Shown piece by piece: positions 53,148 to 56,276 of a stretch of 64,000 bases of DNA (position 1 is its first letter; each line of letters starts with the position of its first letter). A model generated the notes under the pieces. The model ran no database searches, was not told the DNA's origin, and was given only the letters and a program-made list of their open reading frames with translations. This DNA comes from an uncultured Rhizobiaceae bacterium (lineage in GTDB: Bacteria; Pseudomonadota; Alphaproteobacteria; UBA7879; VGCX01): positions 26,500 to 90,499 of the forward strand of contig CAYGKW010000003.1 of NCBI GenBank assembly GCA_964350815.1. The letters run 5' to 3'. A program made the translations under genes and the position numbers.

Positions 53148-54458
53148 ATGAAACTTAATAAACTTAAGTTATTATTCGTATTTACACTTTTAAATATTAC
53201 GACCGCTTGGCAATTTACCTGTGGTGCTGCTGGTGCAGCTGCCTCAGCAGGTTCTATGCCTGAAGATCACCGTGATCGTGCTGTTGTGGCTGGTGTTTTT
53301 TCACACCTAGCCTATGCAAAATTAAAGCCAGGCCCTTTAGAGGATCAAGAACTAGAAGGATTTAACCCAGCCATAAGAGGTTTACTTCCAGAAGGGGCTT
53401 CTATTATTTCAGATACTTGTCATGATGCTGTTGGTGACGGAGCAGAAGCAGCCGCAGAAGTTTTATTAGCATCAACATCAGGACTTCGCGCCATTAATAT
53501 TCAACTTGCTGATGGAAGCCAACACTTATCCTTCAGAGGCACAAAAACACCTTATGGAGCCCTAACAGATGTTGTTTTATTGGCTTGTGCTTTGGATCAT
53601 GATCCAAAGGCAGCTTTGTTAGACCTTGCAACAAAAATGGCCAAAGACTATGCACCTGAAATTGTACCCGAAGCAGTTATAAAAAGTTCTCTTGAACAAG
53701 TTGTAGAACATCTTGGTGAAGCTGCTTCAAAAAGCTTAGAAAGCTCAGGCGGTGGTGAAGCTGCAGCTGAAGAAGAAGATAACGCTTGGTCAGTAACAGG
53801 ATTTACAAAAGCTGTAGCAGCATGGCTTCCCGCAAGCACGACTGGGGATGATTCGTGGATGGGAATAGCAAAAAGCTTGCTATGGGAAGCAGGCGTGGCT
53901 CTTGCCGAATCTGGACATGAAGCCTTCTTTGATTCTTTACCTGAAGATATGAAAATGGCTTTAAAGGCAATAGGCTCAGGAAGCTCTGAAGACTTCAAAA
54001 GAGTAATGCGCCATAGATTAGAAATAGCTGTAGAACAAGCTGTGTCTGCAATAAGAGAAGCAAATACTGCAGGAACTTTAAAAGGGATTTCAGGGCACTC
54101 ACTTGGAGGAATTTCTGCAGAACTTGCTGCGGTTAAACTTATTGCGGCAGGGGAATTAGACCCCGCAATAGAAGTTACCTGTTTTTGTTCTCCTGGAGGG
54201 CGTGAATTATTTGAATTTATGGGAATTGCGGTTCCAGAAGAATCAAATGTTATACACATTGCCCGCGCAGGCGACCTTATTAGCCGCATGGGATCAGTTA
54301 GTGCTTCCCACTCCTACACAATTGATGGGCTAGATCCAAGCCAAGTTGCCGCAGCATATGAATGGCTTGAAGAATCTGCACCTATGCATGCCTTGGTTGC
54401 CCATGGGATCACACCAACTGTTTGGGCACTACTTAAAGATCTTGCAAAAAGAACTTAG
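53148..54458 (+). CDS. secreted class-3 lipase-like alpha/beta hydrolase
   Basis: 436 aa; signal peptide; VAGVFSHLAYAK, HLSFRGTKT (lipase_3 FRGT motif) and nucleophile elbow GHSLGG, separated by an unusually long Ala/Glu-rich insert of about 190 aa. Confidence 0.7.
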   Translation: MKLNKLKLLFVFTLLNITTAWQFTCGAAGAAASAGSMPEDHRDRAVVAGVFSHLAYAKLKPGPLEDQELEGFNPAIRGLLPEGASIISDTCHDAVGDGAEAAAEVLLASTSGLRAINIQLADGSQHLSFRGTKTPYGALTDVVLLACALDHDPKAALLDLATKMAKDYAPEIVPEAVIKSSLEQVVEHLGEAASKSLESSGGGEAAAEEEDNAWSVTGFTKAVAAWLPASTTGDDSWMGIAKSLLWEAGVALAESGHEAFFDSLPEDMKMALKAIGSGSSEDFKRVMRHRLEIAVEQAVSAIREANTAGTLKGISGHSLGGISAELAAVKLIAAGELDPAIEVTCFCSPGGRELFEFMGIAVPEESNVIHIARAGDLISRMGSVSASHSYTIDGLDPSQVAAAYEWLEESAPMHALVAHGITPTVWALLKDLAKRT

Positions 54459-54477
54459 CTAAAAAAAATAAACTACA

Positions 54478-54507
54478 TTTAAAGCCGGGAAATCCCGGCT
54501 TTTTTTA
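54478..54507 (+). terminator. rho-independent terminator (aaagccgggaaatcccggcttt + TTTTTTT)
   Basis: Perfect 8-9 bp stem with 7-T tract after the lipase gene. Confidence 0.75.
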
Positions 54508-54673
54508 TATCTATTTTCAGTCAATACCGAAAAAACTTCAATTATTTACTATAAATTTACTCTAACTCTATTTATGAGATCGTCACAAATTACTTATTTT
54601 TTACTTTAAATAGAACAAAAATAGTACCTTAAAAATTGGTCTGTATTGGGCGCTTCAGCAGTCCCTATTTTAT

Positions 54674-54740
54674 TTCCATTAAAATAAGAATTATTTCCAT
54701 AAAATCCCATTGATTTCCATATTATCCCATGCTATCCCAT
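54674..54740 (+). promoter_or_regulatory. array of six TYCCAT direct repeats (complement ATGGRA), five in exact 10-bp phase; candidate MraZ operator of the dcw promoter
   Basis: Motif ends at 54679, 54700, 54710, 54720, 54730 and 54740, about 90-150 bp upstream of mraZ; E. coli MraZ binds phased TGGGN direct repeats in its own promoter. Confidence 0.5.
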
Positions 54741-54766
54741 TAATAGTGGATGTATAACATGGATAA

Positions 54767-54801
54767 AGTACCTTCAGATTCACAGTGTTTCTGAAGGTAC
54801 T
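54767..54801 (+). promoter_or_regulatory. perfect 12-bp inverted repeat (agtaccttcaga-N11-tctgaaggtact) in the mraZ leader
   Basis: Read directly; 29 nt upstream of the mraZ ATG; no following T-tract, so not a classical terminator. Confidence 0.4.
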
Positions 54802-54829
54802 TACCCAAACAAAGTAGCGGTACAGATTT

Positions 54830-55294
54830 ATGTCATTATTTTTATCGACATATATAAATAAAGTGGACAAGAAAGGACGGGTTTCCGTTCCTGCCACATT
54901 CCGTGCGGCTTTAGGCAAAGAAACATTCAACGGCATTATCGCATTCAGATCTTATAAACTTGCGGCTATTGAAGCATGCAGTATGGATCGCATGAAATTA
55001 ATAAGCGAAAGTGTCGATAATTTAGATTTATTTTCTGATGATCAAGATGATCTTACAGCAACCATATTTGCTGATTCGCATCAGCTAGCGTTCGATAGTG
55101 ACGGACGTATTATGCTTCCAGATGATTTAAGGCAGCATGCCCACATTGATGACAGGGCAGCCTTTATCGGTCGCGGGGCAACATTCCAAATTTGGGATCC
55201 TGATGCGTTTACAAAACATCAGCATACGGCACGTCAGCGCGTCCATGATAGGAAGGCAACGTTAAAACTGAAAGCGGATGATGCTAAGTCTTAG
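54830..55294 (+). CDS. mraZ: transcriptional regulator MraZ
   Basis: 154 aa; two MraZ/SpoVT-AbrB repeats (KVDKKGRVSVPATFR and DSDGRIMLPDDLR). Confidence 0.9.
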   Translation: MSLFLSTYINKVDKKGRVSVPATFRAALGKETFNGIIAFRSYKLAAIEACSMDRMKLISESVDNLDLFSDDQDDLTATIFADSHQLAFDSDGRIMLPDDLRQHAHIDDRAAFIGRGATFQIWDPDAFTKHQHTARQRVHDRKATLKLKADDAKS

Positions 55295-55304
55295 GGAGAA
55301 GAAT

Positions 55305-56276
55305 GTGAAACATATAACACCACAAAATACTCACACAGATCACATTCCAGTAATGTTAGCCGAAGTCGTGCACGCGTTGACGCCCATTGATGGCAAAACG
55401 TATATAGATGGAACCTTTGGGCGTGGGGGATATTCCAAAGCTATTTTGGATGCGGCCAATTGTAACATAATTGCAATTGACCGGGATCCTGACGCCATTA
55501 ATGAAGGTCAAAAACTGGCAGCCACCTATAAAAATCGCATAAACCTGGTTCAAGATCGCTTTAGTAGTTTGGATCAAGTTGCCCTTAATCTTGGGCACAA
55601 AAAAGTGGATGGCGTTGTTTTGGATATTGGGGTTTCATCCCCTCAGTTAGATGCGGCAGAGCGCGGTTTTTCTTTTCAAAAAGAAGGGCCTTTAGATATG
55701 CGAATGGAAAAAACAGGACTTTCCGCTGAAGAAGTTGTTAATGAATATGATGAAAAAGAACTGGCACATATCATATGGAAATTTGGAGATGAACCAAAAT
55801 CCCGCCAAATTGTAAAGGCTATTGTAAAAAGACGGCCTCTGAAGAACACCCTAGATTTGGCTGACGCTGTCTATGCTGTGTATGGCAAAAAGAAAGCCCA
55901 TCAGAAAACTGACCCCGCAACAAAAACTTTTCAAGCAATTCGCATCTATATCAATAATGAATTAGAAGAGCTTGAAGAGGGCCTAAAAGCGGCTGAAAGA
56001 ATTTTAGCAAAAGATGGACGTCTTGTGGTTGTGTCCTTTCATTCATTAGAAGATAGAATTACAAAGAATTTTATTCGTGAACGCAGTAGCAATAGGCCCA
56101 ACGTATCAAGGCATCAAGCCATATTTGATACAGATGCAGACATAAATGAACAACATAGTTTCAAAGCCCCCAAAAAGGCAGTCAAACCTTCTGAGGAAGA
56201 AATAAAAAGAAACCCCCGTGCACGTTCTGCAAGATTAAGGGTGGCCGTTCGACTTGAAGGAGAATCACATGAATAA
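55305..56276 (+). CDS. rsmH: 16S rRNA (cytosine1402-N4)-methyltransferase
   Basis: IPVMLAEVV, YIDGTFGRGGYS SAM motif, VVSFHSLEDR; GTG at 55305 with GGGAGAAG RBS preferred, the ATG at 55278 would overlap mraZ. Confidence 0.85.
   Translation: MKHITPQNTHTDHIPVMLAEVVHALTPIDGKTYIDGTFGRGGYSKAILDAANCNIIAIDRDPDAINEGQKLAATYKNRINLVQDRFSSLDQVALNLGHKKVDGVVLDIGVSSPQLDAAERGFSFQKEGPLDMRMEKTGLSAEEVVNEYDEKELAHIIWKFGDEPKSRQIVKAIVKRRPLKNTLDLADAVYAVYGKKKAHQKTDPATKTFQAIRIYINNELEELEEGLKAAERILAKDGRLVVVSFHSLEDRITKNFIRERSSNRPNVSRHQAIFDTDADINEQHSFKAPKKAVKPSEEEIKRNPRARSARLRVAVRLEGESHE

What the first reader, a model, noticed from the sequence alone, without database searches (positions are those of the whole stretch)
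54674..54740. Ten-bp-phased TYCCAT direct-repeat array upstream of mraZ: candidate MraZ operator
The motif ends at 54679, 54700, 54710, 54720, 54730 and 54740, five of them exactly 10 bp apart. On the other strand they read ATGGGA/ATGGAA, i.e. TGGGA/TGGAA cores on one face of the helix. E. coli MraZ represses the dcw promoter by binding a phased series of TGGGN direct repeats upstream of its own gene. This array is at the equivalent location, about 90-150 bp upstream of the mraZ ATG, and suggests the autoregulatory circuit is retained with an expanded set of five to six repeats rather than three.
Basis: partly seen in the sequence, partly recalled or inferred. Interest (0 to 1): 0.5.

Follow-up and report, generated by a model that had tools for sequence, protein, structure and literature searches.

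The report
MraZ operator interleaved with dcw promoter
A row of evenly spaced TCCCAT-like boxes just upstream of the cell-division regulator gene mraZ is very probably that regulator's own binding site; in this group of bacteria the boxes face the opposite way from E. coli's and alternate with the promoter's own recognition elements.

Summary
TYCCAT ends at 54679, 54700, 54710, 54720, 54730 and 54740 on the + strand. No simulated 64-kb sequence gave more than 3 clustered copies or a phased chain longer than 2.

The gene downstream (54830-55294) is a bona fide MraZ, and its three DNA-contacting residues are conserved.

Of 79 alphaproteobacterial mraZ upstream regions, 75 carry at least 4 CCCAT-like boxes at exactly 10-bp phase, always on the coding strand. 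In a metagenome sample, every array of four CCCAT boxes with dissimilar spacers lay upstream of mraZ.

Three details need correction:
- **Position.** The array is not where E. coli's is. Its spacers spell a conserved -35 (TTGAYN) and an extended -10 (TGnTATmCC) in 77 of 79 loci, so the boxes alternate with the inferred core promoter. In E. coli the boxes lie downstream of the -10.
- **Orientation.** The boxes point the opposite way from E. coli's GTGGG repeats.
- **Number.** Four to five boxes is normal for this lineage, not a local expansion.

The most likely mechanism is autorepression by promoter occlusion. Binding and the transcription start site were not tested. I rate it a new architectural variant of a known operator, of moderate interest.

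The parts
54674..54679 (+). Distal box TTCCAT (reads ATGGAA on the - strand), 21 bp (two helical turns) upstream of the next box, at about -70 relative to the predicted start
   Evidence: The same 21-bp offset is present in the closest relative L001. It is not part of the core shared by more distant relatives.
54695..54700 (+). Box 0, TTCCAT: an extra upstream box in 10-bp phase, at about -49 to -45
   Evidence: The equivalent position is a weaker CCAT/CCAG-like box in many relatives (columns -11 to -6).
54705..54710 (+). Box A, TCCCAT. Its final T is the first base of the predicted -35 hexamer.
   Evidence: columns 0-4 carry 1.0-2.0 bits across 72 anchored loci.
54710..54715 (+). Predicted -35 hexamer TTGATT, occupying the spacer between boxes A and B
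   Evidence: TTGHNN-N14-TGNTAW is present on the coding strand in 77 of 79 loci, in 0 on the reverse strand, and in about 1.1 in shuffles. The -35 variants are TTGAAT (22), TTGACG (21), TTGACA (17), TTGACT (7) and TTGATT (4). This is inferred from conservation; no transcription start data exist.
54715..54720 (+). Box B, TTCCAT
   Evidence: columns 10-14 carry 1.5-2.0 bits and were not used for anchoring.
54725..54730 (+). Box C, TCCCAT. Its final T together with the following G forms the TG of an extended -10.
   Evidence: columns 20-24 carry 1.5-2.0 bits.
54730..54738 (+). Predicted extended -10 element TGcTATCCC (TG at 54730-54731, hexamer TATCCC at 54733-54738), 17-nt spacer from the -35
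   Evidence: the -10 hexamer is TATCCC in 43 loci and TATACC in 30 of 77. G25, T27, A28 and T29 are nearly invariant. The simple sigma-70 scan does not report it because the hexamer lacks the final T.
54735..54740 (+). Box D, TCCCAT, overlapping the 3' half of the -10 hexamer
   Evidence: columns 30-34.
54743..54747 (+). Predicted transcription start region, about 7 nt after the -10 hexamer, giving a leader of about 85 nt
   Evidence: Inference from the promoter geometry. Not measured.
54766..54802 (+). 13-bp stem-loop in the predicted 5' leader (AAGUACCUUCAGA ... UCUGAAGGUACUU)
   Evidence: 91-nt leader MFE -24.7 kcal/mol, z = -2.95 against dinucleotide shuffles. It is largely retained in L001. 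Non-homologous hairpins occur at the same place in about 30% of relatives. Its role is unknown.
54830..55294 (+). mraZ, the presumed cognate regulator and first gene of the dcw cluster
   Evidence: NCBIfam NF001477 equivalog, 176 bits against a cut-off of 162. PF02381 in all homologues. K15, R17 and R93 align with the base-contacting K13, R15 and R86 of M. genitalium MraZ (PMC12957436).
54481..54502 (+). Intrinsic terminator of the upstream gene. It marks the left edge of the regulatory intergenic region.
   Evidence: 9-bp stem with 6 GC pairs, followed by a T run.

Best explanation
[quoted passage not shown] Each CCCAT box (ATGGG on the other strand, i.e. the TGGG core of the E. coli TGGGN repeat) would be read in the major groove by one subunit of an MraZ oligomer. 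Successive subunits would engage successive boxes one helical turn apart, as in the M. genitalium cryo-EM complex. In this lineage the four core boxes (A-D, 54705-54740) alternate with the promoter's own elements. The A-B spacer is the -35 (TTGATT). The C-D spacer plus box D form an extended -10 (TGcTATCCC). Box 0 and a distal box extend the site upstream to about -70. An MraZ assembly on these boxes would cover about -50 to -5 and exclude RNA polymerase, so mraZ-rsmH-ftsL-ftsI would be negatively autoregulated by promoter occlusion. Shown here: the repeats, their phase, their conservation, polarity and specificity for mraZ, and the conserved DNA-contact residues. Inferred: the promoter assignment, the start site, MraZ binding and the sign of regulation.
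For: The array is far beyond chance and unique in the window.

Of 79 mraZ upstream regions from alphaproteobacterial genomes (51-95% MraZ identity), 75 have at least 4 boxes within 1 mismatch of CCCAT at exactly 10-bp phase on the coding strand. The same test for ATGGG or GTGGG on that strand never gives more than 2.

Box columns carry 1.5-2 bits, while the B-C spacer carries 0.4-0.8 bits. The A-B and C-D spacers are conserved as TTGAYN and GnTAT, giving TTGHNN-N14-TGNTAW in 77 of 79 loci against about 1 in shuffles and 0 on the other strand. Only the spacers that coincide with sigma-70 elements are constrained, which argues for a promoter interleaved with a periodic operator.

The motif-to-gene test points the same way. 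Among 80 metagenome loci with four exact phased CCCAT boxes, 13 have an MraZ homologue 14-175 bp downstream on the same strand. The other 67 are micro- or minisatellites whose spacers also repeat. All 8 arrays with dissimilar spacers precede mraZ.

Between the window and L001, the substitutions inside the array fall only in spacers.

The protein is an MraZ equivalog with K15, R17 and R93 aligned to the base-contacting residues of the solved complex.

Known MraZ operators are 3-4 GTG(G/T)/TGGGN boxes at 10-bp period in the mraZ promoter region, and they repress.
Against: No binding, footprint, start-site or expression data exist for this organism or, in the literature I could search, for any alphaproteobacterium.

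The box begins with A rather than the G of the published GTG(G/T) consensus.

Three of the six boxes in the window are TTCCAT (ATGGAA), one step further from TGGG.

The predicted -10 hexamer TATCCC lacks the usually critical final T, and the simple promoter scan did not call it.

MraZ has been reported to activate in M. gallisepticum (cited), so repression is not guaranteed.

The comparative set was chosen through mraZ.
Confidence: 0.8

Rival explanations
1. MraZ does bind the boxes, but it acts as an activator or a dual regulator of a weak promoter, for example by compensating for the poor -10 (TATCCC), rather than as a repressor.
For: MraZ overproduction was reported to activate the operon in M. 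gallisepticum (cited in PMC12957436). The -10 hexamer is non-consensus in all relatives. Extra boxes extend upstream of the -35 to about -70, a position from which activators commonly work.
Against: Boxes B, C and D lie inside the spacer and the -10, where a bound protein would clash with RNA polymerase. The near-consensus -35 and the TG extension are enough for an activator-independent promoter (established knowledge of extended -10 promoters). MraZ represses in E. coli, B. subtilis and M. genitalium, and was shown to bind the equivalent repeats in B. cenocepacia.
Confidence: 0.1
2. The phased boxes are recognised by some other factor, or are a structural feature of alphaproteobacterial Pmra promoters (for example intrinsic curvature or UP-like elements), and their link to mraZ is only positional.
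For: No binding data exist. Other regulators act near this promoter in relatives: a perfect DnaA box lies 25-51 bp upstream of the array in 27 of 79 loci, CtrA-like TTAACCA or TTAA-N7-TTAA motifs occur in some, and CenR ChIP signal upstream of mraZ is reported in Rhodobacter (PMC9275681).
Against: The box core TGGG, the 10-bp period, the direct-repeat arrangement and the placement at the mraZ promoter match experimentally defined MraZ sites. None of the DnaA, CtrA, GcrA/CcrM or CenR motifs resembles CCCAT. The other motifs are patchy, whereas the boxes are near-universal. Curvature would not require an invariant CC(C)AT.
Confidence: 0.07
3. The array is a chance or slippage-generated short tandem repeat in A+T-rich intergenic DNA, with no function.
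For: Tandem Repeats Finder reports it as a period-10/20 repeat. Most four-box CCCAT arrays in metagenomes are simple satellites.
Against: The spacers differ from one another, unlike satellites. The array is conserved box by box across genomes with 29-63% G+C and MraZ identity down to 51%. Simulations never approach it.
Confidence: 0.01

Closest known systems
E. coli Pmra operator: three TGGGN (GTGGG) direct repeats bound by MraZ (Eraso et al. 2014, as cited in PMC8475190 and PMC7761207; sequence read)
   Same: Direct repeats with a TGGG core and an exact 10-bp period in the promoter region of mraZ. The gene order mraZ-rsmH-ftsL-ftsI is the same. Autoregulation is presumed.
   Different: E. coli has 3 boxes on the coding strand. 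They start 8 nt after the -10 (TAAACT), overlap the start site and lie 20-44 bp before the ATG. Here there are 5 phased boxes plus 1, on the opposite strand (CCCAT on the coding strand). They span the -35, the spacer and the -10 and end 89 nt before the ATG. The base 5' of TGG is A rather than G.
Mycoplasma genitalium four-box MraZ operator (AAAGTGT-N3 repeated; cryo-EM complexes 9qlr, 9qlg and others; PMC12957436)
   Same: More than three boxes at 10-bp period, one MraZ subunit per box. The base-contacting K13, R15 and R86 correspond to K15, R17 and R93 of the window protein. In that system binding and repression fell stepwise as boxes were mutated.
   Different: The box sequence is GTG(T/G) with an A-rich 5' flank. 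The start site lies inside box 1, so the operator is at or after the -10 rather than interleaved with the -35 and -10. MraZ identity to the window protein is low (E about 5e-7).
Burkholderia cenocepacia PmraBc: four 7-nt repeats with 3-nt spacers (PMC7761207)
   Same: A proteobacterial four-box array at 10-bp period, shown by EMSA to be bound by MraZ.
   Different: It is located downstream of the -10 and overlaps the start site, as in E. coli.
Bacillus subtilis MraZ-binding repeats (three GTGG[A/T]G, 4-nt spacers; White et al., bioRxiv 10.1101/2022.02.09.479790)
   Same: Phased direct repeats required for repression of the mra operon. The triple repeat is unique in that genome, as the array is unique in this window.
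   Different: Three boxes with a GTGG core. No interleaving with the -35 and -10 is described.

Membership tests
MraZ operator (MraZ-binding direct repeats of the dcw/mra promoter) | Three or more direct repeats of a short box with a 10-bp (one helical turn) period | tested here: met
   Five boxes are exactly 10 bp apart and a sixth lies 21 bp upstream.
MraZ operator (MraZ-binding direct repeats of the dcw/mra promoter) | Box core matches the experimentally defined consensus (TGGGN in E. coli; GTG(G/T) across phyla) | tested here: inconclusive
   On the - strand the boxes read ATGGGA (three copies) and ATGGAA (three copies). The TGGGN form is met by three boxes and by the lineage consensus ATGGG. 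The leading G of GTG(G/T) is replaced by A throughout the lineage.
MraZ operator (MraZ-binding direct repeats of the dcw/mra promoter) | [quoted passage not shown] | tested here: met
   The array lies 89-156 nt upstream of the mraZ ATG, between the upstream gene's terminator and mraZ.
MraZ operator (MraZ-binding direct repeats of the dcw/mra promoter) | Boxes on the coding strand, downstream of the -10 and overlapping the start site (the arrangement in E. coli, B. cenocepacia and M. genitalium) | tested here: not met
   The boxes have the opposite polarity and overlap the inferred -35, spacer and -10. This is an architectural feature of the characterised examples rather than a requirement for MraZ binding, so it defines a variant and does not exclude membership.
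MraZ operator (MraZ-binding direct repeats of the dcw/mra promoter) | Conserved upstream of mraZ in related genomes and specific to that gene | tested here: met
   75 of 79 relatives have at least 4 phased boxes. All non-satellite four-box arrays in a metagenome sample precede mraZ. There is no second array in the 64-kb window.
MraZ operator (MraZ-binding direct repeats of the dcw/mra promoter) | Specific binding by MraZ, and MraZ-dependent regulation of the operon | not testable with these tools
   Requires EMSA or footprinting and reporter or RNA measurements.
MraZ protein (PF02381; NCBIfam division/cell wall cluster transcriptional repressor MraZ) | Scores above the curated family cut-off and has two DXXXR-type motifs with the base-contacting Lys/Arg residues | tested here: met
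   NF001477 scores 176.2 bits against a cut-off of 162. D13-K14-K15-G16-R17 and D89-S90-D91-G92-R93 align with K13/R15 and R86 of M. genitalium MraZ. These positions are invariant in the 23-sequence alignment.

The most novel reading that the evidence does not exclude
Alphaproteobacteria as a group use a previously undescribed MraZ operator architecture. It has four to six boxes of reversed polarity. Their spacers are the -35 and the TG-extended -10 of Pmra, so regulator and sigma factor read alternating 5-bp segments of the same 45 bp. The box requirement cripples the -10 (TATCCC/TATACC), and the TG extension compensates. If so, MraZ repression is polarity-independent, purely steric, and much tighter than in E. 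coli. In many lineages this promoter would also integrate replication and cell-cycle inputs, through an adjacent DnaA box and a GANTC site created at the -35/box junction.
Probability: 0.5. Interest if true: 0.55.

Novelty: new variant of a known kind. Interest (0 to 1): 0.4.

Why it matters
MraZ is one of the most widely conserved bacterial transcription factors, yet its operator has been defined in only a handful of species, none of them alphaproteobacterial in the literature I could search. This locus and about 90 relatives give a clean, testable operator model for that class. The model makes several concrete points:
- The same TGGG-type box can work in the opposite polarity.
- The operator can be written into the gaps of a promoter rather than placed after it.
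- It predicts which bases serve MraZ and which serve RNA polymerase.

This gives a direct handle on how dcw expression is set in Alphaproteobacteria, where cell-cycle control by CtrA, DnaA, GcrA and CcrM is well studied but MraZ has been largely ignored. The design logic, interleaved operator and promoter, may also interest synthetic biologists. It does not overturn anything: it extends a known circuit.

Tried and rejected
1. Rfam search of 54400-54900 at E <= 1: only sub-threshold noise, no known RNA element.

2. Simple sigma-70 scan: no + strand promoter was called in 54400-54900. This is because the scan demands a T at the last -10 position, so the promoter assignment rests on cross-species conservation instead.

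3. Testing whether the boxes could be read in the E. coli orientation (GTGGG or ATGGG on the coding strand): never more than 2 phased boxes in any of the 79 loci, so rejected.

4. DnaA box in the window: none within 1 mismatch. The two 2-mismatch matches (54758, 54801) are not convincing.

5. TTAC-N7-TTAC as a conserved response-regulator site: two copies in the window, but found in only 3 of 79 loci, so not pursued.

6. Literature: Eraso et al. 2014 (PMC4010979) is not held, and one call failed on a term that was too short. Searches combining MraZ with TGGGN, Alphaproteobacteria, Caulobacter or DnaA found no description of an alphaproteobacterial MraZ site. Fisunov et al. 2016 (Biochimie) could not be read, so prior mention there cannot be excluded.

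7. A regex with a wrong spacer length was corrected.

8. Footprinting between the window and L001 is weak evidence on its own, because the intergenic regions are 89% identical.

Full report
**1. The observation**

The sequence reads ...tttTTCCATtaaaataagaattatTTCCATaaaaTCCCATtgatTTCCATattaTCCCATgctaTCCCATtaatag.... The last five copies are exactly 10 bp apart and the first is 21 bp from the second.

TYCCAT is not enriched in the window overall: 127 matches against 122 expected. Its clustering is unique, though. There are 6 same-strand copies in 67 bp and a five-long 10-bp chain here, against a maximum of 2 copies and a chain of 1 elsewhere in the window. In 200 Markov simulations the maxima were 3 copies and a chain of 2. 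A three-box phased pattern occurs nowhere else in the 64 kb.

**2. Context**

- ORF 54830-55294 is MraZ (NCBIfam NF001477, 176 bits against a cut-off of 162; PF02381 in all homologues).
- It is followed by rsmH (TIGR00006), then a small ftsL-like ORF and an ftsI-like PBP. This is the canonical 5' end of a dcw cluster.
- The upstream gene (53148-54458, same strand) ends in an intrinsic terminator at 54481-54502.
- The array therefore sits in a 371-bp intergenic region that can only serve mraZ.
- The closest genomes are uncultured Alphaproteobacteria. Holosporaceae-like MAGs are among the relatives.

**3.

A scan of one genome per species with an MraZ profile returned 80 loci at 51-95% identity, all from Alphaproteobacteria of several orders. 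In 79 regions with at least 150 bp of upstream sequence (78 of those loci plus the window itself):
- 75 carry at least 4 boxes within one mismatch of CCCAT at exactly 10-bp phase on the coding strand. The distribution is 32 loci with four boxes, 40 with five and 3 with six.
- The same test for ATGGG or GTGGG on the coding strand never exceeds 2.

Anchored on the box followed by TTG, the consensus is tCCCATTGAc.CCCAT.....CCCATG.TATmCCAT. The box columns carry 1.5-2.0 bits. The B-C spacer carries only 0.4-0.8 bits.

Between the window and its 95%-identical relative L001, the differences inside the array fall only in spacers.

**4. Specificity in the other direction**

- Thirteen loci have an MraZ homologue 14-175 bp downstream on the same strand (hmmsearch E from 1e-16 to 1e-53).
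- The other 67 are micro- or minisatellites in which the spacers repeat too.
- All 8 arrays whose three spacers differ from one another at 3 or more positions precede mraZ.
- These loci range from 29% to 63% G+C, so the motif is not a by-product of composition.

**5. The promoter is written into the spacers**

The conserved A-B spacer plus the last T of box A spell TTGACN, TTGAAT or TTGATT. The conserved C-D spacer plus its neighbours spell TGnTAT(C/A)CC, and 17 nt separate the two hexamers.

The pattern TTGHNN-N14-TGNTAW occurs on the coding strand in 77 of 79 loci. It occurs on the opposite strand in none, and in about 1.1 loci after shuffling.

Only the two spacers that coincide with sigma-70 elements are constrained. 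A purely periodic protein contact would not produce that asymmetry. I therefore read the region as an extended -10 promoter interleaved with the operator.

In the window the assignments are:

| Element | Coordinates | Approximate position |
|---|---|---|
| -35 TTGATT | 54710-54715 | -35 |
| TG of the extended -10 | 54730-54731 | -15/-14 |
| -10 hexamer TATCCC | 54733-54738 | -12 to -7 |
| Predicted start | about 54745 | +1 |
| Box D | 54736-54740 | -9/-5 |
| Box C | 54726-54730 | -19/-15 |
| Box B | 54716-54720 | -29/-25 |
| Box A | 54706-54710 | -39/-35 |
| Box 0 | 54696-54700 | -49/-45 |
| Distal box | 54675-54679 | -70/-66 |

From my own knowledge, the form GnTATmCC also resembles the Caulobacter housekeeping -10 consensus GCTANAWC.

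The caveat is that TATCCC lacks the usual final T, and the simple promoter scan does not call it. The start site is inferred, not measured.

**6. Comparison with characterised operators**

- **E. coli.** The region reads TTGACA-N18-TAAACT-cctttca-GTGGGaaattGTGGGgcaaaGTGGG-N19-ATG. There are three boxes on the coding strand. They begin 8 nt after the -10 and lie 20-44 bp before the ATG.
- **Literature consensus.** Published work describes three GTG(G/T) boxes with a 10-bp period across phyla. Four boxes occur in M. genitalium, with the start site inside box 1. Four also occur in B. cenocepacia, downstream of the -10 'as in E. coli'. B. subtilis has three GTGG[A/T]G repeats that are required for repression.
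- **Structure.** In the M. genitalium cryo-EM complexes one subunit reads each box through K13, R15 and R86. These align with K15, R17 and R93 of the window protein, which are invariant in its relatives.

The present array shares the TGGG core, the period, the direct-repeat form and the link to mraZ. It differs in four ways:
1. polarity, which is reversed;
2. position, on the -35, spacer and -10 instead of after the -10;
3. the base 5' of TGG, which is A instead of G;
4. number, with 4-5 typical in the lineage and 5+1 here.

**7. Mechanism**

The best-supported reading is that MraZ subunits load cooperatively on boxes one turn apart, cover about -50 to -5, and exclude RNA polymerase. This would give negative autoregulation of mraZ-rsmH-ftsL-ftsI.

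The steps shown are the array, its phase, conservation, polarity and specificity, and the conserved contact residues. The steps inferred are the promoter and start site, binding itself, and the sign of regulation.

My confidence that this is the MraZ operator is about 0.8. Given that, my confidence in repression by occlusion is about 0.85.

The rivals are activation or dual control (0.1), another factor or a structural role (0.07), and a functionless tandem repeat (0.01, effectively refuted).

**8. Novelty**

I found no description of an alphaproteobacterial MraZ site in the searchable literature. Two key papers could not be read: Eraso 2014 and Fisunov 2016.

As an MraZ operator the feature is expected. 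As an architecture, with reversed polarity interleaved with the -35 and an extended -10, it appears to be an undescribed variant. That variant is conserved across the alphaproteobacterial orders represented among these loci. Interest is moderate at 0.4: not surprising in kind, but a crisp, testable model for a poorly characterised and widely conserved regulator.

**9. Things seen in passing**

- **Leader hairpin.** A 13-bp stem-loop lies in the predicted leader at 54766-54802. Non-homologous hairpins occur at the same place in about 30% of relatives.
- **DnaA box.** A perfect DnaA box (TGTGGATAA on the coding strand) lies 25-51 bp upstream of the first box in 27 of 79 relatives. The window has none.
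- **GANTC site.** A GANTC (CcrM) site is created at the -35/box B junction in 31 of 77 relatives. The window has none there.
- **CtrA-like motifs.** These occur in some relatives.
- **TTAC-N7-TTAC.** Two such direct repeats lie in the window's intergenic region. One 17-mer is shared with L003.

Noticed in passing
window 54766-54802 (+): A strong 13-bp stem-loop lies in the predicted mraZ 5' leader, about 20 nt after the predicted start (91-nt leader MFE -24.7 kcal/mol, z = -2.95). It is largely kept in L001, with one G-U change and one mismatch. About 30% of relatives have unrelated hairpins at the same position (z < -2). It could be a 5' stabiliser or a processing or attenuation element. There is no Rfam match.
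   Followed up: partly
L004-L007, L010, L012-L015, L018, L020-L022, L026, L028, L029, L036, L045, L049, L052, L055, L058, L061, L062, L065, L072, L078, L079 (about 25-51 bp upstream of the first CCCAT box): A perfect DnaA box (TGTGGATAA on the coding strand, i.e. TTATCCACA on the other) sits just upstream of the MraZ array in 27 of 79 relatives, always in the same orientation. This suggests DnaA input into the dcw promoter in many Alphaproteobacteria. The window and L001 lack it; the best matches have 2 mismatches, at 54758 and 54801.
   Followed up: partly
Relatives with -35 TTGAAT, TTGACT or TTGATT followed by CCCAT (e.g. L005, L012, L035, L061); window 54777-54781: In 31 of 77 relatives the -35/box B junction reads GANTC (TTGAATCCCAT or TTGACTCCCAT). 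That is a CcrM methylation site overlapping both the -35 and a box. The window's junction (TTGATTTCCAT) is not GANTC, but a GATTC lies in the leader hairpin stem, next to the loop.
   Followed up: no
window 54546-54560 and 54590-54604 (+): There are two TTAC-N7-TTAC direct repeats (11-bp period, response-regulator-like) 44 bp apart in the intergenic region. The 17-mer TTACTTATTTTTTACTT is identical in L003 (73% MraZ identity), where it lies about 20 bp upstream of box A. The motif is found in only 3 of 79 loci, so its significance is unclear.
   Followed up: partly
L008, L017, L019, L032, L048, L057, L073 and others (within 60 bp upstream of the -35): CtrA-like motifs (TTAACCA; TTAA-N7-TTAA in 9 forward and 9 reverse loci against 2.35 in shuffles) occur upstream of the mraZ promoter in a subset of relatives. 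None is in the window.
   Followed up: no
window 55278-55310: The longest rsmH ORF starts at an ATG (55278) that overlaps the end of mraZ by 17 nt. A GTG at 55305, preceded by AGGGAGAAG, looks like the more likely start, and the RsmH family match begins at residue 20.
   Followed up: no
window 53148-54458 (+): The gene upstream of the array encodes a 436-aa protein with an apparent signal peptide and a GHSLGG lipase-type nucleophile motif. It has no NCBIfam match. It may be a secreted hydrolase and is unrelated to the dcw cluster.
   Followed up: no
L082-L161 (metagenome scan): Most exact four-box CCCAT arrays in metagenomes are 5- or 10-bp micro- or minisatellites (e.g. (CCCAT)n, (CCCATTAAAT)n). 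Many come from a single sample series (Ga0126342) and are probably eukaryotic. They are unrelated to MraZ.
   Followed up: yes
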